Below are positions 19,449-60,050 of a stretch of 64,000 nt of DNA, piece by piece. Position 1 is the stretch's first letter, and each line of letters begins with the position of its first letter. The position numbers were made by a program, and so were the translations under genes. This DNA comes from an uncultured Muribaculaceae bacterium (GTDB lineage: Bacteria; Bacteroidota; Bacteroidia; Bacteroidales; Muribaculaceae): assembly GCA_964646495.1 (NCBI GenBank), contig CAZYEO010000001.1:383-64382 (forward strand). The letters run 5' to 3'. The notes beneath the pieces are model-generated. The model saw nothing but the letters and a program-made list of their open reading frames with translations. It made no database searches and was not told the origin of the DNA.

Positions 19449-20738
19449 TTATAAACCGAACGCTGCTTTGAGCGTTGGAACATAATCAAGTTTTTCCCAT
19501 GTGAATAGTTCCACTTCCATCTCTTTCTCTCCTTCGTATTTTGAAGAAAAATGCTTTGTGATGGTTTGCGGCATACGTCCCACATGTCCGTAGGCAGCTG
19601 TTTCTTCGTAAATAGGGTTGCGCAATTTTAGCCTGCGTTCTATCGCTTTGGGGCGAAGATCGAAAATGTCGCTTAATATTGCTGCTATTTCTGCGTCACT
19701 CTGTTTTACTTTTTTAGTGCCGTATGTATTTACACACACACTCACCGGGCGTGCTACACCAATTGCATAGGCTACTTGCACTAAAATTTCATCGGCAATA
19801 CCTGCTGCAATAGCATTTTTGGCAATGTGGCGAGCAGCATAAGCAGCAGAACGGTCTACTTTAGAGGGGTCTTTGCCCGAAAAAGCTCCACCTCCGTGTG
19901 CTCCTTTTCCTCCGTAGGTATCGACGATTATTTTGCGACCGGTAAGTCCGGTGTCTCCATGAGGTCCTCCGATAACAAATTTCCCGGTTGGATTTACATG
20001 AAGTATCAGTTTGTCGTCAAACATGTCCTGTAGCTCTTGTGATAATGTAGCTTTAACACGAGGAATTAATATATCGCGAACATCATCATGTATTTTGGTG
20101 AGCATTTCGGCATCGGCTGCAAGTTGTGCTTCCTGTGATCCGTCGGATGGTAATATAAATTCGTCATGTTGTGTGCTCACTACGATTGTGTGGATGCGCA
20201 CAGGTTTGTTATCTTCATTGTATTCTATCGTCACTTGGCTTTTTGAGTCAGGACGAAGGTAGGTCATCACCTTTCCTTCGCGACGAATATCGGCAAGAGC
20301 TTGGAGCAATTGATGTGAAAGATCGAGAGATAACGGCATGAAGTTTTCGGTTTCGTTGCAGGCATAGCCAAACATCATTCCTTGATCTCCGGCTCCTTGT
20401 TCCTCTTCGTCTATGCGTTCTACTCCACGGTTGATGTCAGCACTCTGTTCATGCAGGGCAGAGAGTACTCCGCAAGAATCGGCATCAAACTTGTATTCGC
20501 TTTTGTTATAGCCAATACGGTTTATCACGTTGCGCGTAACATCCATAAGGTCGATATACGCTTTTGATTTTACTTCGCCTGCCACGATTACTTGACCGGT
20601 GGTGACGAGGGTTTCGCACGCAACTTTCGATTCAGGGTCGAAAGCCATGAATTGGTCGAGCAGCGCATCGCTGATTTGATCGGCAACCTTATCGGGATGC
20701 CCTTCTGAAACTGATTCGGATGTGAATAGATAATTCAT
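19449..20738 (-). CDS. metK: S-adenosylmethionine synthetase
   Basis: Motifs [23 protein letters not shown] and GGGAFSGKD. The ATG at 20738 ([10 protein letters not shown]) is preferred over the TTG at 20747. Confidence 0.97.
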
Positions 20739-20883
20739 TTTTTCCAATTTTTTAGGGTGGAAAAAATGCTAAGCAATAACTATGAATTACTTGGGAATTG
20801 TAGTTCGCAGTTTTTAGCATTTTTTATCGTGGTTGCAAGCAGCCAAATTTTTCCACTGGGTTAATAAAAATATTTTATCGCCA

Positions 20884-56378: not shown

Positions 56379-56452
56379 GGTGCGGTAGTTCAGTTGGTTA
56401 GAATACCTGCCTGTCACGCAGGGGGTCGCGGGTTCGAGTCCCGTCCGCACCG
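56379..56452 (+). tRNA. tRNA-Asp (anticodon GTC)
   Basis: The cloverleaf was folded manually. Acceptor GGTGCGG/CCGCACC, D-arm GTTC..GAAT, anticodon stem CCTGC/GCAGG with loop CTGTCAC (GTC), T-arm GCGGG-TTCGAGT-CCCGT, discriminator G. CCA is not encoded. Confidence 0.95.
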
Positions 56453-56540
56453 CAGTGGAGAGAGAAGATGGACAACTTTACTTGAAAATAGTAAGTTGTC
56501 CATCCTTTCTTTGTTTAATCCCTATCGAAATTGAGGATAA
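56441..56540. repeat. Left copy of a perfect 100-bp direct repeat (attL-like): last 12 nt of tRNA-Asp plus 88 nt downstream
   Basis: It is identical base for base to 59739-59838 (checked by hand). Confidence 0.95.
56467..56516 (+). terminator. Rho-independent terminator of tRNA-Asp (inside the 100-bp repeat)
   Basis: 12-bp stem, gatggacaactt (56467-56478) with aagttgtccatc (56493-56504), followed by CTTTCTTTGTTT. It is duplicated at about 59765-59814. Confidence 0.7.
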
Positions 56541-56575
56541 TTCAAAGATATATTATTTTGATAGATTGAGCAATA

Positions 56576-57469
56576 CTATTTTACACCTTTCAACTCTCTT
56601 TCCATAGCTTCTCTACGCTTTTCAGCTTCCGAAGTAGAGTTGTCAGTTGAAGGTTTTTCTTTTACCCAAGCACCTTTATTTTCGCTATAATAGATTTTCT
56701 GTCTTGCTAATGCCTTGCAATCCGTTTCTGATAGTTCGGTATAATTCCAGTCCGTTCCGTTGTCAGGAGTGCCTAAAAAGTCATTCAAATCAACTTCTAT
56801 TTCGTTAGCGGGATTGGTCATTTTCTTTATCAGAGATTCAAAAGGCGATTCTGACGATTTTTCAAATTCTACTTTAAGGGAGACTTCCTCAGTTTTTGGA
56901 GACTCTATTTGTACTGGAGATTGATTTGCTACACGATTGCGAACTTCTACCATTTCTTTGAATGTTACATACTCACACCTAATTTTCCTGATCTTATCTA
57001 CAAAAATCTGTTTCCCAATCCTATCTATATGATCAGAATAGCCAACGCTATATAATTCGCCTTGAGGAACCTCAAATATTAAGGATAACTCTTTCTTGGT
57101 CTTGGGATTGATTGTCTCAGAGAATAACAGTGGATTCAGTCTTGATGTGAAGTTGGTTGAGACATCGTAACGGCAATCGTTATAATCAAACAAACTCAAG
57201 TCGTTTTGATACAAGGTTTGCGGCTCTTTGCTAATATTTTCGATAATGAAGTCCAATTTCATTATTGCACTTCCTTTGGGTAGACTCCATTCCCTATCTA
57301 ACGTCATTTTCATATTGGTAAGATGAAAGACTTTAAGGGTCTTATTAGGAGCAACAACCTGTTTCAAGCCATCGGATATATTAATTATTCCCATATTATA
57401 CAAAACAGAAACACCCAACCCTAAAGCAAGACATATAATAATAGCCCAAAGAAGTTTAGTTGATTTCAT
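56576..57469 (-). CDS. Membrane-anchored hypothetical protein, DUF4352-like Ig-fold ectodomain plus acidic C-terminal region
   Basis: 297 aa. It has an N-terminal TM (LLWAIIICLALGLGVSVL). The central beta-sandwich pattern (MKLDFIIENISKEPQTLYQNDLSLFDYNDCRYD...ELSLIFEVP) resembles DUF4352. It sits 3 nt downstream of the preceding gene. Confidence 0.55.
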   Translation of the reverse strand: MKSTKLLWAIIICLALGLGVSVLYNMGIINISDGLKQVVAPNKTLKVFHLTNMKMTLDREWSLPKGSAIMKLDFIIENISKEPQTLYQNDLSLFDYNDCRYDVSTNFTSRLNPLLFSETINPKTKKELSLIFEVPQGELYSVGYSDHIDRIGKQIFVDKIRKIRCEYVTFKEMVEVRNRVANQSPVQIESPKTEEVSLKVEFEKSSESPFESLIKKMTNPANEIEVDLNDFLGTPDNGTDWNYTELSETDCKALARQKIYYSENKGAWVKEKPSTDNSTSEAEKRREAMERELKGVK

Positions 57470-57472
57470 ATT

Positions 57473-57943
57473 TTATCTGTTATGAGGATATTTGTCTCGA
57501 TTGGTATTCATTTCTATGCCTGAAGAAAATTCATTTTGCTTAGGTTGAGTTTTTAGAGGTGAACTATTTGTTCTATTACCATTCGAAATATTTTCGGAAT
57601 TATTTGAATCTAAAGCTTCTTTTATCTTATCCTCTCCTAAAATAAAAACATGATTCAAGATTCCGAAAGAAACAATCTTATTGTTTTCTTGATAAGAAAT
57701 TTTACCAAGACTGAAAATGAAGTAATTATCAGTTGATAAATGGGTCTTAATGAAACCTTCCATGATAAATGAACCCAAACCACCCCATACTATACCAGCA
57801 ACCCCATCTTTGTCAGTCTTTTCTCTTACAATATCCGTAAGAAAATTATTAATAGATTCTGAATGCTCCTGCTTATTGGGGCAAGTCAGAGCAAATACGA
57901 CAATTAAGCTCACAAAAGACAAAAATATTAAAAGTTTTTTCAT
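57473..57943 (-). CDS. Small lipoprotein/membrane protein, DUF4359-like
   Basis: 156 aa from the ATG at 57943 (the track start at 57952 is TTG). It has a signal peptide with a possible lipobox (VVFALTC). The pattern NYFIFSLGKISY...SFGILNHVFI resembles DUF4359. The family call is from memory and low-confidence. Confidence 0.5.
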   Translation of the reverse strand: MKKLLIFLSFVSLIVVFALTCPNKQEHSESINNFLTDIVREKTDKDGVAGIVWGGLGSFIMEGFIKTHLSTDNYFIFSLGKISYQENNKIVSFGILNHVFILGEDKIKEALDSNNSENISNGNRTNSSPLKTQPKQNEFSSGIEMNTNRDKYPHNR

Positions 57944-58387
57944 TAATTGCAATTTTTAGCCTTTGACAACCAACGAAGGTATTATACAAAAAAGAAGTGG
58001 GCTGCCGTCCACGCCTATCAGGTATCGCCAAACACCTACATATACACGAACAAACAATCCCCCTATACGTGGAGTCATCTGTACCTTGTATATGCCCTTT
58101 TAATTTGGCAATTTCGATAGGCAAAGGCACTTCTTAAATATGTCCGTTCCGAAGAACAAATACAAAGATAACGAATTTAGATTCGCCACCAATTGTATTA
58201 CTGGCAAAATATTGCTTACACTCCGATAAGGTGGGTTTTAGTTGCTCCAAACTTGTGTTTATTCGTATTCCGCATGGGCTAAGTTAGTTGGCATTGAGCA
58301 AAAGACAAAATTCTAATTAATATTTTCTTAACAAGTCAATTAAAATTTGTACTTTCGTATATCAATACTAAAACACTACATATTAGA

Positions 58388-59593
58388 ATGAAGACTATTT
58401 TCTCAGAATATTACCCAATAAGCAAAGATGTCATTAATAATGCTTGGGACAAAGGTGTATTTTGCTATGACGCCAATGTTTTATTGAACTTATATAGGTA
58501 CTCCAATGAAACTCGAAATAAAATCTTCGAGAACATTGAATATTTTATAGGCAAAACTATAATGCCATATCAAGCTTGTTATGAGTATCACAAAAATAGA
58601 AGAAGCGTTGAGGATAGTTTATCAAATAGTTACGACGAAATAATAAAGGTTATTGAAAAAACCATTAATTCATTAGAGTCAGGAGACATTACTGGATATA
58701 GAAAACATTGTGCTTTAGATATTTATAAAGATATAATCAAACCAATAAAATTGACAGCAACAAAGGTAATTAAGAAAATTAATGATATAAAAAGTGATCA
58801 TCCTTCATTGCTAAATGCCTCGGAAATACACGAGAAAATCAGCCAACTATTCGATGGTAAAGTCTCAAATAAATTTCTCGAAGATGAACTGAAGAAGATA
58901 TATACGGAAGGCAAGATTAGATATGAAAAGAAGATTCCTCCTGGATTTGCAGACTATGATAACAAAAAGAACAAAGGTGAAAATAGCTTGTACGGAGATT
59001 TGATTATTTGGAAACACCTTATCGAAATAAGCAAGAATAAAAATTCAGATATTATTTTTGTTACAGATGATAGAAAAAAAGATTGGTGGGACATTCACCA
59101 TGGACAAACAAAAGGTGCGCTACCCGAATTATACAGTGAGTTCAAGGAACTTACATCACATAATATTTTAATATATTCGGTAGAGGACTATATGAAATAC
59201 GCTCCAGAACATTCAGAGATTGCAGTCCCTAAGAAAGTTATTAATGAAATTGAGGAGCTTAGAAAGGTTGACGAACGAAGAAAAGCCTATCTTGATTATG
59301 ATTCTCTCTCCAAAATAACGGAATACATAAATAAGCAAAATAGCGTTTGGGAGAATCTTAATAAACAAAATGAGGTTTTCAAAGCATTGAATAACTATAC
59401 TACGTTGACTGATTATTCAAAATCAATCGAAGAGTTCAATAAAACAATACAAAAGATTAACCCCAAGATTGAATATATCGAATTAATTGAAAATATGAAT
59501 AAATTCAATGCCGGTGAAACAATATGGGATAATATAAATTTCAAAAGAAAAAAGGATTTCTTTCATAACGTGGACGAAGATGATAATGAATAA
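58388..59593 (+). CDS. PIN-like domain (DUF4935-type) predicted nuclease with long helical C-terminal region
   Basis: 401 aa. The N-terminal PIN-like beta-strand with Asp is VFCYDANVLLNLY (D28). The conserved acidic cluster is IIFVTDDRKKDWW (D227/D228), after GDLIIWKHLIE. The C-terminal roughly 130 aa are Lys/Glu/Asn-rich and helical. The gene is very AT-rich. Confidence 0.65.
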   Translation: MKTIFSEYYPISKDVINNAWDKGVFCYDANVLLNLYRYSNETRNKIFENIEYFIGKTIMPYQACYEYHKNRRSVEDSLSNSYDEIIKVIEKTINSLESGDITGYRKHCALDIYKDIIKPIKLTATKVIKKINDIKSDHPSLLNASEIHEKISQLFDGKVSNKFLEDELKKIYTEGKIRYEKKIPPGFADYDNKKNKGENSLYGDLIIWKHLIEISKNKNSDIIFVTDDRKKDWWDIHHGQTKGALPELYSEFKELTSHNILIYSVEDYMKYAPEHSEIAVPKKVINEIEELRKVDERRKAYLDYDSLSKITEYINKQNSVWENLNKQNEVFKALNNYTTLTDYSKSIEEFNKTIQKINPKIEYIELIENMNKFNAGETIWDNINFKRKKDFFHNVDEDDNE

Positions 59594-59738
59594 CAAATCA
59601 AGGGCCGGTATAAGGGACGGAAATTTTGTTTATGATTGACATCCTCACGTTCCTGAATGAAAAATGCAAATCATATAATCACTTCAAAATGATTAAAATA
59701 TCAGTCAAATAAAGTCATTTGATTGCAAAAAGGAGCTA

Positions 59739-59838
59739 CCGTCCGCACCGCAGTGGAGAGAGAAGATGGACAACTTTACTTGAAAATAGTAAGTTGTCCA
59801 TCCTTTCTTTGTTTAATCCCTATCGAAATTGAGGATAA
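59739..59838. repeat. Right copy of the perfect 100-bp direct repeat (attR-like), carrying only the last 12 nt of tRNA-Asp
   Basis: It is identical to 56441-56540. It is preceded by non-tRNA sequence (aaggagcta). Confidence 0.95.
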
Positions 59839-60050
59839 GCCTGAAAAATATTAGCTTGAAAGATAATTAATCGCAATAATTTGCAAGATTTTGAATTATT
59901 ACCTGTATATTAGCCGTCCGACATATTTAATCGGTTAATTTGCTTGTTATGAGATTATAAACTGAATAGTTCTGAATACCCATTGCAAGGTTTTCTTGAG
60001 CTATTCAGTTTTGGGTTTTTATTTACGCAAAATATCCTGTATGCTTTGTG

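What the first reader, a model, noticed from the sequence alone, without database searches (positions are those of the whole stretch)
58388..59593. Orphan PIN-like (DUF4935-type) nuclease with a long helical tail as candidate single-gene defence or abortive-infection effector
- **Domain evidence:** the 401-aa protein has the hallmarks of a PIN-like fold. A first beta-strand ends in Asp (CYDANVLLNLY). A late acidic cluster is embedded in IIFVTDDRKKDWW.
- **Tail:** the fold is followed by about 130 aa of charged, coiled-coil-like sequence with no recognisable partner domain.
- **Missing partners:** no antitoxin-sized ORF lies adjacent, so it does not look like a classical VapBC pair. No helicase, ATPase or methylase accompanies it.
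- **Context:** its location in a tRNA islet and its extreme AT-richness fit horizontally moving immunity genes. The activating signal and the target (RNA or DNA) are not obvious from the sequence.
Basis: partly seen in the sequence, partly recalled or inferred. Interest (0 to 1): 0.7.

Follow-up and report, generated by a model that had tools for sequence, protein, structure and literature searches.

The report
Mobile-element PIN_8 nuclease, likely defence gene
This gene encodes an intact nuclease of a large uncharacterised family (PIN_8), carried on a small piece of foreign DNA inserted next to a tRNA gene; its relatives sit among anti-virus genes, so a defence role is plausible but untested.

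Summary
The ORF (58388-59593, +, 401 aa) is real. It is a full-length PIN_8 (PF18476) protein (E=2e-57); the DUF4935/PIN_12 match is marginal. D28, E66 and D204 are invariant across 54 homologues and D227/D228 nearly so. The core (residues 1-280) is under strong purifying selection (dN/dS 0.04-0.08), while the helical tail evolves 5-7 times faster.

The gene lies in a 3.3-kb AT-rich islet flanked by a 126-nt direct repeat that starts in the tRNA-Asp 3' end. A Dysgonomonadaceae relative carries the same right end in a 7.3-kb integrase-bearing element at tRNA-Asp. The window has no integrase.

No conserved antitoxin exists, and no PADLOC, NCBIfam or PDB match. Some relatives sit between hsdS and hsdR of type I R-M operons (5/77 loci) or head a PIN_8-HerA-NurA-methylase operon (15/77, tail-less). 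Others sit beside dGTPase, R-M and TIR genes, near prophage ends, or on tiny plasmids. The remainder lie among housekeeping genes.

A defence or conflict role is the best reading, by association only.

By-product: the conserved stretch upstream is a promoter-hairpin-terminator RNA-like element with strong covariation. It is absent from Rfam, occurs in at least 93 gut viral contigs (typically after the lysis cassette), and is independent of PIN_8.

The parts
56379..56453 (+). tRNA-Asp (GTC), the attachment site of the inserted element. It is intact.
   Evidence: ARAGORN; Rfam tRNA at 70.2 bits. It is 94.7% identical to the tRNA-Asp that carries the integrase-bearing relative in L007.
56441..56566 (.). 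Left copy of the direct repeat. It comprises the last 13 nt of tRNA-Asp plus about 97 nt of downstream sequence, including the tRNA terminator hairpin at 56461-56510.
   Evidence: the repeat finder family D1: 126 nt, 93% identical, spacing 3298 nt. The alignment shows about 110 nt exact, starting at CCGTCCGCACCGCA.
56576..57469 (-). orf297: an N-terminally membrane-anchored DUF4352 protein, cargo of the islet.
   Evidence: Pfam DUF4352, E=3.6e-9. The gene is 74% identical at the DNA level to the DUF4352 gene that lies divergently next to PIN_8 in L095-L097. Its C-terminal region resembles the 199-aa neighbour of PIN_8 in Alistipes.
57473..57952 (-). orf159: a small predicted lipoprotein (weak DUF4359 match), cargo of the islet. 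It has the second-lowest GC in the window.
   Evidence: ORF list. Pfam DUF4359 scores 24.2 bits, below the cut-off. GC is 0.306. No homologue was found in the related loci.
57985..58170 (-). Promoter (-7 box TATCTTTG at 58170-58163), then a rod-like structured RNA-like element of about 170 nt, then a U-tract. It is transcribed away from PIN_8 and towards orf159 and orf297. It belongs to a widespread family that is not in Rfam.
   Evidence: **Conservation:** 88-100% identity to L007 and L095, although synonymous sites in the gene are saturated.

**Structure:** fold z-score of -4.5 on the minus strand. Ten compensatory pairs among 4 copies.

**Wider family:** a covariance model hits 93 of 100 viral loci. 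Covariation there is 90.2% of cells paired against 63.1% in shuffles, with 45 of 56 pairs showing double changes.

**Promoter and terminator:** a promoter box and a T-run sit at fixed distances.

**Rfam:** no hit.
58388..59593 (+). The PIN_8-family nuclease gene (401 aa). The PIN_8 domain spans residues 25-248 (nt 58460-59131) and contains a helical insertion of about 140 aa. The conserved core extends to about residue 300. The variable helical tail covers residues ~300-401 (nt ~59285-59590).
   Evidence: **Domain matches:** Pfam PIN_8 E=2e-57; phrog_9788 E=3.7e-57.

**Conserved residues:** D28, E66, D204 and D232 are invariant; D227 and D228 are nearly invariant.

**Structure:** AlphaFold2 mean pLDDT 84. 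The best Foldseek neighbours are PIN proteins.

**Selection:** dN/dS is 0.04-0.08 in the core, and the tail has 5-7 times higher dN.
59595..59738 (.). Conserved right arm of the element, carrying GGGCCGG/GGGACGG repeats that are likely integrase arm-type sites. It ends at the att core.
   Evidence: 88-90% identical to the segment that follows PIN_8 in L007, L095-L097, and 75% identical in L101-L103. In L007 the GGGACGG-repeat motif occurs at both element ends. In the window GGGACGG occurs only here within the islet.
59739..59864 (.). Right copy of the direct repeat: the displaced tRNA-Asp 3' end plus the native downstream sequence leading to the alanine dehydrogenase gene.
   Evidence: The flanking genes are AsnA, AlaDH and SulP.

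Best explanation
**What it is.** The gene encodes a catalytically competent, metal-dependent nuclease of the PIN_8 family (VapC-like branch of the PIN-like superfamily). The protein has three parts:
- a PIN core;
- a family-specific helical insertion of about 140 aa that carries its own invariant residues (R178, PPG 184-186, D189);
- a fast-evolving helical tail of about 100 aa.

**Where it sits.** It is an accessory ('cargo') gene of a small mobile element that entered the chromosome by Campbell-type recombination at the 3' end of tRNA-Asp. That element has since lost, or never carried, its integrase.

**What it most likely does.** Its most likely role is in conflict between the host or element and incoming phages or other mobile DNA. 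In this reading the nuclease is kept latent and, on infection, cleaves RNA or DNA to stop the invader or the infected cell. The tail or the helical insertion would serve for self-association or autoinhibition; in tail-less relatives a HerA ATPase platform would provide this.

**Shown here:**
- family membership;
- intact active-site residues;
- purifying selection;
- foreign composition;
- the repeat-bounded insert at tRNA-Asp;
- homology of the element's right end to an integrase-bearing element;
- absence of a conserved protein partner;
- recurrent placement of relatives inside or beside defence systems and on prophages and plasmids.

**Inferred:** nuclease activity, the defence function, the latent-then-triggered logic, the substrate, and the role of the tail.

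**Confidence.** The figure of 0.55 is for the defence/conflict function. The descriptive part (an intact PIN_8 nuclease gene carried as cargo of a tRNA-Asp insert) I hold at about 0.9.
For: **Domain and active site**
- PIN_8 E=2e-57 over the whole profile.
- D28, E66, D204 and D232 are invariant and D227/D228 nearly invariant in 54 homologues of 29-74% identity. This matches the '4-5 conserved acidic residues' given for PIN_8 in PMC5499597.
- AlphaFold2 model pLDDT above 90 over most of residues 1-290.
- The top sensible Foldseek hits are PIN proteins: PAE2754 (prob 0.85), FitB, the HARP RNase P, and a viral 'PIN like domain' protein (prob 0.98).

**A real, selected gene**
- dN/dS is 0.04-0.08 in residues 1-280 against orthologues at 75% identity.

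**Foreign and mobile**
- It has the lowest GC of 38 ORFs in the window.
- The insert is bounded by a 126-nt direct repeat that starts inside tRNA-Asp.
- L007 has tRNA-Asp, then an integrase, then further genes, then PIN_8 and the right arm, with a 16-nt att core repeated 7311 nt apart. Its homology to the window runs exactly to the repeat.
- Integrases or relaxases sit next to every close homologue examined.

**Defence association in relatives**
- Neighbours include dGTPase (E=1e-101), type II R-M, a TIR protein, a split type IIG R-M and PDC-M70A.
- In 5 of 77 genome loci PIN_8 lies between hsdS and hsdR. PrrC is likewise genetically linked to, and silenced by, the type Ic R-M enzyme EcoprrI (PMC2610378). 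That prrC lies between the S and R genes is from my own knowledge.
- In 15 of 77 loci the operon is PIN_8-HerA-NurA-N6/N4 methylase.

**Other mobile contexts**
- At least 96 viral contigs carry relatives, and the gene lies within about 5 kb of a contig end in 42 of 80.
- In Clostridium phage phiCp-A it is the last gene.
- 68 plasmids carry relatives, including a 4.2-kb plasmid where it is essentially the only cargo.

**Tail versus HerA**
- HerA-linked forms have a median length of 344 aa. The other forms are about 400 aa.
Against: **Association is incomplete**
- There is no PADLOC hit, so the defence label is by association only.
- 46 of 80 genome loci carry none of the recombinase or defence markers I searched for. 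In those loci the nearest neighbours are heterogeneous and mostly housekeeping (AMP-binding, LpxK, tRNA synthetase, S1), with only scattered DndFG, AbiEii and reverse-transcriptase hits.
- I did not compute a proper background-corrected defence score.

**This locus specifically**
- It has no known defence gene nearby. Its only neighbours are two envelope proteins and an RNA-like element.
- There is no integrase in 64 kb, so current mobility is unproven.
- No empty site could be found, because the host is essentially unique in the databases.

**Structure**
- Structural matches to PIN proteins are not statistically significant on their own (E above 0.05). The large insert is the likely reason.
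- I could not inspect active-site geometry because no coordinates are available.
Confidence: 0.55

Rival explanations
1. **Addiction (toxin-antitoxin-like) module.** PIN_8 would be a toxin that stabilises the mobile element. It would be neutralised by an unrecognised partner, for instance the adjacent structured RNA (type I/III-like) or a non-homologous small protein.
For: - PIN domains of the VapC-like group are classic TA toxins (PMC5499597).
- A strongly conserved structured RNA-like element lies 220 nt upstream in the four closest lineages.
- Some distant plasmid homologues have a small ORF just upstream: 65 aa in pA48P2 and 91 aa in pC51_006.
- It is the sole cargo of tiny plasmids, as addiction genes often are.
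Against: - The RNA element and PIN_8 are independent. None of 80 viral or 77 genome PIN_8 loci outside the close lineage has the element.
- None of 120 viral loci with the element has PIN_8.
- In phages the element follows the lysis cassette and precedes same-strand cargo genes.
- It is transcribed away from PIN_8 and shows no significant duplex with the PIN_8 translation start (z about -1).
- No conserved small ORF sits upstream across 77 loci or in the intergenic region.
- The protein is 401 aa, against about 130-150 aa for VapC.
Confidence: 0.13
2. **Element life-cycle nuclease.** PIN_8 would serve the mobile element itself, in replication, recombination, DNA-end processing or packaging. 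An example would be a structure-specific nuclease acting with HerA-NurA-type end-resection machinery.
For: - It shares an operon with HerA and NurA, which are DNA-end resection proteins in archaea and bacteria (PMC12977600, listed), in 15 of 77 loci.
- It always lies near an element end, beside integrase arm sites.
- In Alistipes it is next to a Phage_CRI-like replication protein.
- The PIN-like superfamily includes flap and 5' nucleases.
Against: - Most family members are lone genes with no recombination or replication partner.
- The window copy persists under purifying selection in an islet that has no integrase or replication gene.
- The HerA-NurA operons carry a DNA methylase and sit beside other defence candidates such as PDC-M62A. 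That pattern fits self/non-self discrimination rather than the element's life cycle.
- Embedding in type I R-M operons is hard to explain this way.
Confidence: 0.12
3. **Housekeeping RNA-processing enzyme, or a decaying remnant.** The gene would be either an ordinary host enzyme or an inert leftover with no current function.
For: - The flanks are housekeeping genes: AsnA, AlaDH, SulP and tRNA-Asp.
- In many distant loci the neighbours are housekeeping.
- The islet lacks an integrase, so it looks like a remnant.
Against: - The distribution is patchy. The exact protein and its flanking proteins are singletons in a collection of 15 billion proteins, and the nearest homologues (75% identity) are in other genera on mobile elements.
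- Composition is foreign, and the insert is bounded by repeats.
- The reading frame is intact, dN/dS is 0.04-0.08 and the catalytic residues are invariant, all of which argue against decay.
Confidence: 0.05

Closest known systems
PIN_8 family (Pfam PF18476), defined in Matelska et al. 2017, NAR 45:6995 (PMC5499597)
   Same: - Full-length HMM match at E=2e-57.
- VapC-like group with 4-5 conserved acidic residues.
- Found in bacteria, with a few archaeal and viral members.
   Different: - Nothing separates it from the family, so it is a member.
- The family itself is annotated 'Function unknown', and PF18476 is mentioned in none of the searchable papers.
- New at family level here: the HerA-NurA-methylase and type I R-M operon contexts, the correlation between tail and HerA, and about 7,300 clusters at 50% identity.
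DUF4935 / PIN_12 (Pfam PF16289)
   Same: - A related PIN-like family with a long helical insert after strand 2.
- Genes are described as mono-cistronic (PMC5499597).
   Different: - The match is only 33.5 bits against a cut-off of 32, and it lies under the much stronger PIN_8 match.
VapC toxins of VapBC type II toxin-antitoxin pairs
   Same: - The same branch of the PIN-like superfamily.
- The same D-E-D-D type of acidic site.
- The likely chemistry is metal-dependent RNA cleavage.
   Different: - It is three times larger.
- It has a 140-aa helical insertion and a 100-aa tail.
- There is no adjacent antitoxin gene here, and no conserved one across 77 loci.
PrrC / RloC anticodon nucleases guarding type I R-M systems
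   Same: - In 5 of 77 relatives the gene lies between hsdS and hsdR, within a type I R-M operon as prrC does.
- PrrC is genetically linked to and silenced by the type Ic enzyme EcoprrI, and is unleashed when a phage inhibits restriction (PMC2610378). That prrC lies between the S and R genes is my own knowledge.
- This offers a working model for a latent suicidal RNase.
   Different: - The fold is unrelated: PrrC has an ABC-ATPase plus a nuclease domain, and PIN_8 has no NTPase.
- The window copy is not next to any R-M system.
Effector-HerA defence pairs (SIR2-HerA, DUF4297-HerA; PMC11291478, PMC11472057, PMC11514289)
   Same: - In 15 of 77 relatives a short PIN_8 directly precedes a HerA-type ATPase.
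- In the known pairs, likewise, an effector enzyme is paired with HerA.
   Different: - Those operons also carry NurA and a DNA methylase.
- PADLOC recognises only the HerA and methylase parts.
- The window gene has no HerA and carries a tail instead.
Menshen NsnC 'inactive PIN' effectors (PMC12065111)
   Same: A PIN-like domain in an anti-phage protein.
   Different: - NsnC PIN domains lack the catalytic residues and are fused to a separate toxin domain.
- PIN_8 keeps all acidic residues and has no second enzymatic domain.
tRNA-targeting integrative elements of Bacteroidota (tyrosine integrase with Arm-DNA-bind_5/SAM_5 domains)
   Same: - A direct repeat that includes the tRNA 3' end.
- A right arm with repeated GGGACGG-type motifs.
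- Homology to a 7.3-kb element with an integrase and an HTH_17 gene at the same tRNA.
   Different: - There is no integrase or excisionase in the islet or anywhere in the 64-kb window.
- The repeat is unusually long (about 110 nt exact) because it also contains sequence downstream of the tRNA.

Membership tests
PIN_8 (PF18476) | Match to the family HMM above the curated cut-off, over the whole domain | tested here: met
   195.2 bits against a cut-off of 26.1. Residues 25-248 cover profile positions 2-227 of 227.
PIN_8 (PF18476) | Four to five conserved acidic active-site residues | tested here: met
   D28, E66, D204 and D232 are invariant and D227/D228 are at least 90% conserved in 54 sequences. 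The family description is in PMC5499597.
PIN_8 (PF18476) | PIN (Rossmann-like, 3-layer alpha/beta/alpha) fold | tested here: inconclusive
   The AlphaFold2 model is confident (pLDDT 84) and the best sensible Foldseek hits are PIN proteins (prob 0.85 in PDB, 0.98 in BFVD). All E-values exceed 0.05, however, and no coordinates were available to inspect the site.
PIN_8 (PF18476) | Metal-dependent nuclease activity | not testable with these tools
   This needs biochemistry.
DUF4935 / PIN_12 (PF16289) | Match to the family HMM above the curated cut-off as the best family | tested here: inconclusive
   33.5 bits against a cut-off of 32, on the same residues as the far stronger PIN_8 match.
VapBC type II toxin-antitoxin | Adjacent, co-transcribed small antitoxin gene | tested here: not met
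   There is no conserved ORF in the 435-nt upstream region. No recurrent small neighbour appears in 77 loci.
VapBC type II toxin-antitoxin | Compact single-domain toxin of about 130-150 aa | tested here: not met
   The protein is 401 aa, with an insertion and a tail.
Known or candidate defence systems (PADLOC-DB v2.0) | Match to any system component model | tested here: not met
   Zero families at E up to 1 for PIN_8, orf297 and orf159. The short HerA-linked form also gives none.
R-M-linked suicide RNases (PrrC-like arrangement) | Gene embedded in a type I R-M operon | tested here: not met
   No hsd genes occur in the window. The feature is met only by 5 of 77 relatives.
Effector-HerA defence systems | Adjacent HerA-type ATPase | tested here: not met
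   There is none in the window. It is present in 15-16 of 80 relatives, all of them tail-less.
tRNA-integrated mobile element | Direct repeats that include the tRNA 3' end and bound a compositionally foreign segment | tested here: met
tRNA-integrated mobile element | Own integrase | tested here: not met
   No integrase-like ORF occurs in the 64 kb. The related element L007 has one.
tRNA-integrated mobile element | Presence/absence polymorphism (an empty site in related genomes) | not testable with these tools
   The flanking proteins are singletons and not indexed. The repeat was not found in viral or metagenome contigs. No close relative turned up in metagenome contigs.
Rfam RNA families (for the upstream structured element) | Match to any of the 4227 covariance models | tested here: not met
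   There is no relevant hit at E up to 1 in the window copy, nor at E up to 0.1 in six viral copies.

The most novel reading that the evidence does not exclude
PIN_8 proteins would be the effector of a new and very widespread anti-phage or anti-plasmid defence family of about 7,300 clusters at 50% identity. The family would come in three formats:
- a stand-alone tailed form, like this gene;
- a PrrC-like guard embedded in type I R-M operons;
- a tail-less form that works on a HerA-NurA-methylase platform.

The variable helical tail would act as the built-in regulator or sensor that HerA replaces.
Probability: 0.4. Interest if true: 0.6.

Novelty: new member of a known kind. Interest (0 to 1): 0.45.

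Why it matters
- PIN_8 is a large protein family with no assigned function and no solved structure. This locus and its relatives give a concrete, testable hypothesis: a latent nuclease used in conflicts between bacteria, phages and mobile elements.
- The work also supplies ready-made comparison sets for choosing constructs: stand-alone, R-M-embedded and HerA-linked forms.
- If confirmed, it would add a single-gene system and a four-gene HerA-NurA-methylase-PIN_8 system to the defence catalogue. Gut Bacteroidales are under-sampled for defence systems.
- The by-product may matter independently. It is a strongly covarying promoter-hairpin-terminator element, found after the lysis cassette of many gut Bacteroidales phages and in front of variable cargo genes. 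It is a candidate new RNA family that marks where these phages and islands load accessory genes.

Tried and rejected
**Empty-site and strain-polymorphism test (no result)**
- The exact PIN_8 and AlaDH proteins are not indexed.
- All the window proteins I looked up that are in the collection are singletons.
- The repeat hairpin has no exact match in viral or metagenome contigs.
- A search for close relatives in metagenome contigs found none.

**Sequence search of the PDB**
- It gave only spurious SH3/spectrin hits and a designed helical protein.
- Whole-model Foldseek E-values are not significant.

**The upstream element as a known RNA:** no Rfam family matches.

**The upstream element as a PIN_8 antitoxin or regulator (rejected as a general rule)**
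- The element and the gene occur independently.
- It is transcribed away from the gene.
- No significant RNA-RNA duplex forms with the translation start regions of PIN_8, orf159 or orf297.

**A hidden small protein gene in the 435-nt intergenic region:** reading frames are not conserved in the Alistipes copy.

**A conserved protein partner across the family**
- Clustering of the five ORFs on either side in 77 loci gave only the HerA/NurA/methylase block and the type I R-M block.
- Small upstream ORFs are mostly not protein-like and not related to each other.

**DUF4352 as a general partner:** it occurs only in the window and L095-L097 lineage.

**A direct repeat flanking the module in L096/L097**
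- I suspected this from two 52-aa ORF calls. It is not present at the DNA level.

**Literature**
- DUF4935 appears in 2 papers and PF18476 in none.
- No paper links PIN_8 to HerA-NurA or to defence.
- The invariant RNA motif appears only as unrelated primers.

**Not followed up:** a weak covariance-model hit in L052 (26.5 bits).
Full report
**1. The observation**

The ORF at 58388-59593 (+) is present, starts with ATG and encodes 401 aa.

Pfam gives a full-length match to PIN_8 (PF18476): E=2e-57, residues 25-248, profile positions 2-227 of 227. The match to PIN_12/DUF4935 (PF16289) is only 33.5 bits against a cut-off of 32, on the same stretch. The protein is therefore a PIN_8 member, and DUF4935 is the sister family.

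- PHROGs has a full-length family of unknown function: phrog_9788, E=3.7e-57, residues 1-362.
- PADLOC and NCBIfam give nothing.
- PDB sequence searches give only spurious hits.

**2. The protein**

*Conservation.* I aligned 54 homologues of 29-74% identity.
- Invariant: D28, N34, Q62, E66, R178, P184, P185, G186, D189, D204, L205, W208, T226, K230, D232, W233, L248, E251.
- At least 90% conserved: D227 and D228.

This gives the acidic D-E-D-D-type set expected of an active PIN nuclease. It also fits the '4-5 conserved acidic residues; function unknown' entry for PIN_8 in Matelska et al. 2017 (PMC5499597).

*Predicted structure.* The AlphaFold2 model has mean pLDDT 84 and pTM 0.74.
- The alpha/beta core is interrupted by a long helical insertion (about residues 61-200).
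- Strands at 222-225, 234-244 and 260-263 are confident.
- A 54-residue helix (282-335) and three shorter helices follow, with confidence falling from about 65 to below 50.

*Structural neighbours.* Foldseek finds no significant match for the whole model. The best sensible neighbours are nevertheless all PIN proteins: PAE2754 (prob 0.85, TM 0.58 on the target), FitB and the HARP RNase P in the PDB, and a phage 'PIN like domain' protein (prob 0.98) in BFVD. I could not inspect the active-site geometry because no coordinates are available.

*Selection.* Against orthologues at about 75% identity, residues 1-280 have dN/dS of 0.04-0.08. The tail has 5-7 times higher dN, with dN/dS of 0.13-0.24 where it can be computed.

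*Family size.* An exhaustive search finds 7,319 cluster representatives (50% identity) at E up to 1e-3, and 5,446 at E up to 1e-10. Nearly all align to query residues 1 to about 300 and carry unrelated C-terminal extensions.

**3. The locus**

*Composition and flanks.* The gene has the lowest GC of 38 ORFs in the window: 0.304 against 0.395 ± 0.025. The window contains one tRNA, tRNA-Asp(GTC) at 56379-56453. The flanks are ordinary chromosomal genes (AsnA, alanine dehydrogenase, a SulP transporter), and a SusC/SusD pair lies upstream, which indicates a Bacteroidota host.

*The repeat.* A 126-nt direct repeat (93% identical, about 110 nt exact) lies at 56441-56566 and 59739-59864. It starts 13 nt inside the tRNA 3' end and includes the tRNA terminator hairpin.

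*Contents of the 3.3-kb segment between the repeats:*
- orf297 (-), a membrane-anchored DUF4352 protein;
- orf159 (-), a predicted lipoprotein;
- a conserved non-coding block;
- PIN_8 (+);
- a 145-nt conserved 'right arm'.

*The related element.* A Dysgonomonadaceae contig (L007, L008, L014; protein 71% identical) explains this layout.
- It has a tRNA-Asp 94.7% identical to the window's, followed by a tyrosine integrase, an HTH_17 gene, several unknown genes, and PIN_8 as the last gene.
- A 16-nt core, CCGTCCATACCGCAAA, is repeated 7,311 nt apart.
- DNA homology with the window runs from 57972 to 59752, which is exactly up to the right repeat.

The right arm carries GGGACGG-type repeats. It recurs after PIN_8 in L095-L097 and L101-L103.

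*What the window lacks.* GGGACGG occurs only at the right end of the islet, and there is no integrase-like ORF in the 64 kb.

*Interpretation (inferred).* The structure is what a circular molecule carrying 'core + downstream sequence' would produce by Campbell-type insertion at tRNA-Asp. The islet is now an integrase-less derivative. I could not test for an empty site, because the host is essentially unique in the collections.

**4. Partners**

No conserved protein partner exists.
- The 435-nt upstream region has no reading frame conserved in the Alistipes copy.
- I clustered the five ORFs on either side of PIN_8 in 77 species-representative genome loci. This yields only two recurrent blocks.
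- Small upstream ORFs are mostly not protein-like and are unrelated to each other.

*Block 1 (15 of 77 loci).* The operon is PIN_8, then HerA (DUF87, about 730 aa), then NurA (about 460 aa), then an N6/N4 DNA methylase (about 375 aa), with overlapping stops and starts. It is often followed by a PDC-M62A-type ATPase and lies on elements with recombinases or relaxases.

*Block 2 (5 of 77 loci).* These are mainly Bacteroidaceae, Muribaculaceae and Alistipes. PIN_8 lies between hsdS and hsdR of a type I R-M operon.

*Length tracks context.* HerA-linked proteins have a median of 344 aa and no tail. R-M-embedded proteins are about 399 aa. All others have a median of 407 aa.

**5. Context of the closest homologues**

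Every one of them is on or beside a mobile element.
- **Alistipes finegoldii (75% identity).** Two tyrosine integrases and a Phage_CRI-like protein are present. The variable neighbours include a dGTPase (PADLOC E=1e-101), a type II R-M pair, a TIR protein (PDC-S66) and a SacI R-M.
- **L095 (77% identity).** Two integrases, HTH_17 and CTn-type genes are present, and the same divergent DUF4352 gene as in the window.
- **L098 (55% identity).** This is a relaxase-bearing element, with a split type IIG R-M directly upstream.
- **L009 (39% identity).** PIN_8 lies between IS21 copies, next to a PDC-M70A-like gene.
- **L100 and L101.** An integrase is adjacent.

*Wider survey.*
- Of the 80 genome loci, 18 have a tyrosine integrase within the stretch and 34 have some recombinase or defence-type marker.
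- In the remaining 46, the two nearest genes on each side are heterogeneous and mostly housekeeping, with scattered DndFG, AbiEii and reverse-transcriptase hits.
- At least 96 IMG/VR contigs encode relatives. In the 80 I fetched, the gene lies within about 5 kb of a contig end in 42 and within about 2 kb in 20.
- In the one GenBank phage with a hit, Clostridium phage phiCp-A, it is the last gene, after a tRNA and a sigma factor.
- Sixty-eight plasmids carry relatives. One is a 4.2-kb Psychrobacter plasmid with RepM, a 65-aa ORF, the PIN-like gene and MobV. Another is a 5.2-kb Klebsiella ColE1-type plasmid.

**6. Mechanism**

*Shown.* This is an intact, selected PIN_8 protein with a complete acidic site, carried as cargo of a tRNA-Asp-integrated element. 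It has no protein partner at this locus. Its relatives are repeatedly placed inside or beside defence systems and at prophage ends.

*Inferred.* It is a metal-dependent nuclease kept latent and unleashed during infection or invasion.

*Two precedents give working models.*
- PrrC is an anticodon nuclease genetically linked to, and silenced by, the type Ic enzyme EcoprrI, and it is activated when a phage peptide inhibits restriction (PMC2610378). From my own knowledge, the prr gene order is hsdM-hsdS-prrC-hsdR. If so, the R-M-embedded PIN_8 genes occupy the same position.
- In SIR2-HerA and DUF4297-HerA, an effector enzyme is paired with a HerA ATPase (papers listed).

The inverse relation between tail and HerA suggests that the tail provides self-assembly or autoinhibition in the stand-alone form. 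That is a hypothesis only. VapC-like PINs typically cut RNA, whereas the HerA, NurA, methylase and R-M partners point to DNA. The substrate cannot be decided from sequence.

*Probabilities.* I put the defence/conflict reading at about 0.55. The rivals are:
- an addiction toxin with an unrecognised antitoxin, 0.13;
- a life-cycle nuclease of the element, 0.12;
- housekeeping function or decay, 0.05.

**7. The conserved non-coding block (by-product)**

*In the window lineage.* Window 57985-58170 is 88-100% identical to L007 and L095, although synonymous sites in the gene are saturated (dS at least 0.8). On the minus strand it has three parts:
- an invariant Bacteroidetes -7 box (TATCTTTG, 58170-58163);
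- a rod-like hairpin (fold z=-4.5);
- a U-tract.

Among the four PIN_8-linked copies, ten pairs show compensatory changes. None of 500 shuffles reaches that number, and slid controls give at most 1.

*In viral contigs.*
- A 17-nt motif from its invariant stem (GGTGTYTGGCGATACCT) has at least 120 exact matches in IMG/VR.
- A covariance model built from the four copies hits 93 of the first 100 of these loci at 25-115 bits.
- On that alignment (49 distinct sequences), 90.2% of cells pair against 63.1% in shuffles. 45 of 56 pairs show double changes, and the covariation score is 0.537 against 0.147 in shuffles and at most 0.084 in slid controls. The alignment is fitted to the model, and the search motif fixes one stem, so the invariant stem itself is not evidence. 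The flanking helices are.
- A TAnnTTTG box sits at a fixed distance upstream in about 67 of 84 distinct contexts. A T-run follows within 20-40 nt in 51 of 84.

*Genomic position.* In the viral contigs the element lies about 110 nt downstream of a lysis cassette: a holin-like gene, an Amidase_3 or DUF5675 gene, and a 162-aa lipoprotein/TM spanin-like gene. It lies upstream of variable same-strand cargo, such as an Mrr-type restriction endonuclease.

*Status.* No Rfam family matches and no paper contains the motif.

*Relation to PIN_8.* The two are independent. None of the 80 viral or the other genome PIN_8 loci has the element, and none of the 120 element loci has PIN_8. In the window it points away from PIN_8, towards orf159 and orf297, whose start lies about 35-45 nt past the U-tract. 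I read it as an sRNA gene or a promoter-leader-attenuator for accessory genes at phage or island ends, not as a PIN_8 antitoxin.

**8. Comparison and verdict**

The gene is a member of a known but functionally blank family, so it is a new member of a known kind.
- It is not a VapBC pair.
- It is not in any PADLOC system.
- At this locus it is neither R-M-linked nor HerA-linked.

The protein description and its 'orphan' status hold. The family label and the 'tRNA islet' needed correction. The defence role remains an inference from context.

Interest is moderate at 0.45. A mobile PIN nuclease as a defence candidate will not surprise specialists. The family is large and uncharacterised, however, and the three genomic formats give an unusually clear experimental route.

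Noticed in passing
window 57985-58170 (minus strand); also L001 9604-9772, L007 7601-7778, L095 8592-8770, and L108-L227: A promoter, rod-like hairpin and U-tract element of about 170-210 nt with very strong covariation. It is not in Rfam. It is present in at least 93 IMG/VR contigs, typically just after the lysis cassette and before variable cargo genes such as an Mrr-type endonuclease. It is a candidate new structured RNA family of gut Bacteroidales phages and islands.
   Followed up: yes
L024 10001-15791 (also L011, L025, L028, L029, L041, L051, L074 and others): A conserved four-gene operon: short PIN_8 (about 344 aa), HerA/DUF87, NurA, and an N6/N4 DNA methylase. It occurs in Flavobacteriia, Chitinophagia and others, often next to a PDC-M62A-type ATPase and recombinases. 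PADLOC recognises only the HerA and methylase parts. It is a candidate multi-gene defence system.
   Followed up: partly
L027 6218-14586 (also L049, L054, L065): PIN_8 (about 400 aa, tailed) is inserted between hsdS and hsdR of type I R-M operons in gut Bacteroidales, within a type I R-M operon as prrC is in the E. coli prr locus. An unassigned 217-aa gene sits between hsdM and hsdS.
   Followed up: partly
window 56441-56566 and 59739-59864: The direct repeat is unusually long for a tRNA att site (about 110 nt exact). This is because it also duplicates the tRNA terminator hairpin and downstream sequence. It would allow RecA-mediated loss of the islet without any integrase.
   Followed up: partly
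window 56576-57469 (orf297); L001 8966-9565; L095 7774-8547; L156 678-881: The DUF4352 membrane protein recurs divergently next to PIN_8 in L095-L097. Its C-terminal 80 aa resemble the 199-aa neighbour of PIN_8 in Alistipes and a cargo ORF downstream of the RNA element in a viral contig. This may be a shuffled accessory envelope-protein module.
   Followed up: partly
window 20804-20862 (minus strand): A SAM-II (long-loop) riboswitch match above the gathering score (53.8 bits), upstream of the 432-aa ORF at 19449-20747.
   Followed up: no
window 34702-54867: A polysaccharide-utilisation-type cluster. It has a SusC/SusD pair followed by several large secreted proteins with F5/8 type C domains, ending in a 1,982-aa protein directly upstream of asnA.
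   Followed up: no
L105 (Psychrobacter plasmid pA48P2, 4,204 bp) and L106 (Klebsiella pC51_006, 5,240 bp): Distant PIN_8-like genes (25-30% identity) are essentially the only cargo of very small plasmids. Each is preceded by a small hypothetical ORF (65 aa and 91 aa). These would be convenient natural constructs for testing toxicity or defence.
   Followed up: partly
L052 17212-17391 (+): A weak full-length hit of the RNA covariance model (26.5 bits, E about 0.002), 6 kb downstream of a HerA-linked PIN_8 in a Chitinophagaceae genome. It may be chance.
   Followed up: no
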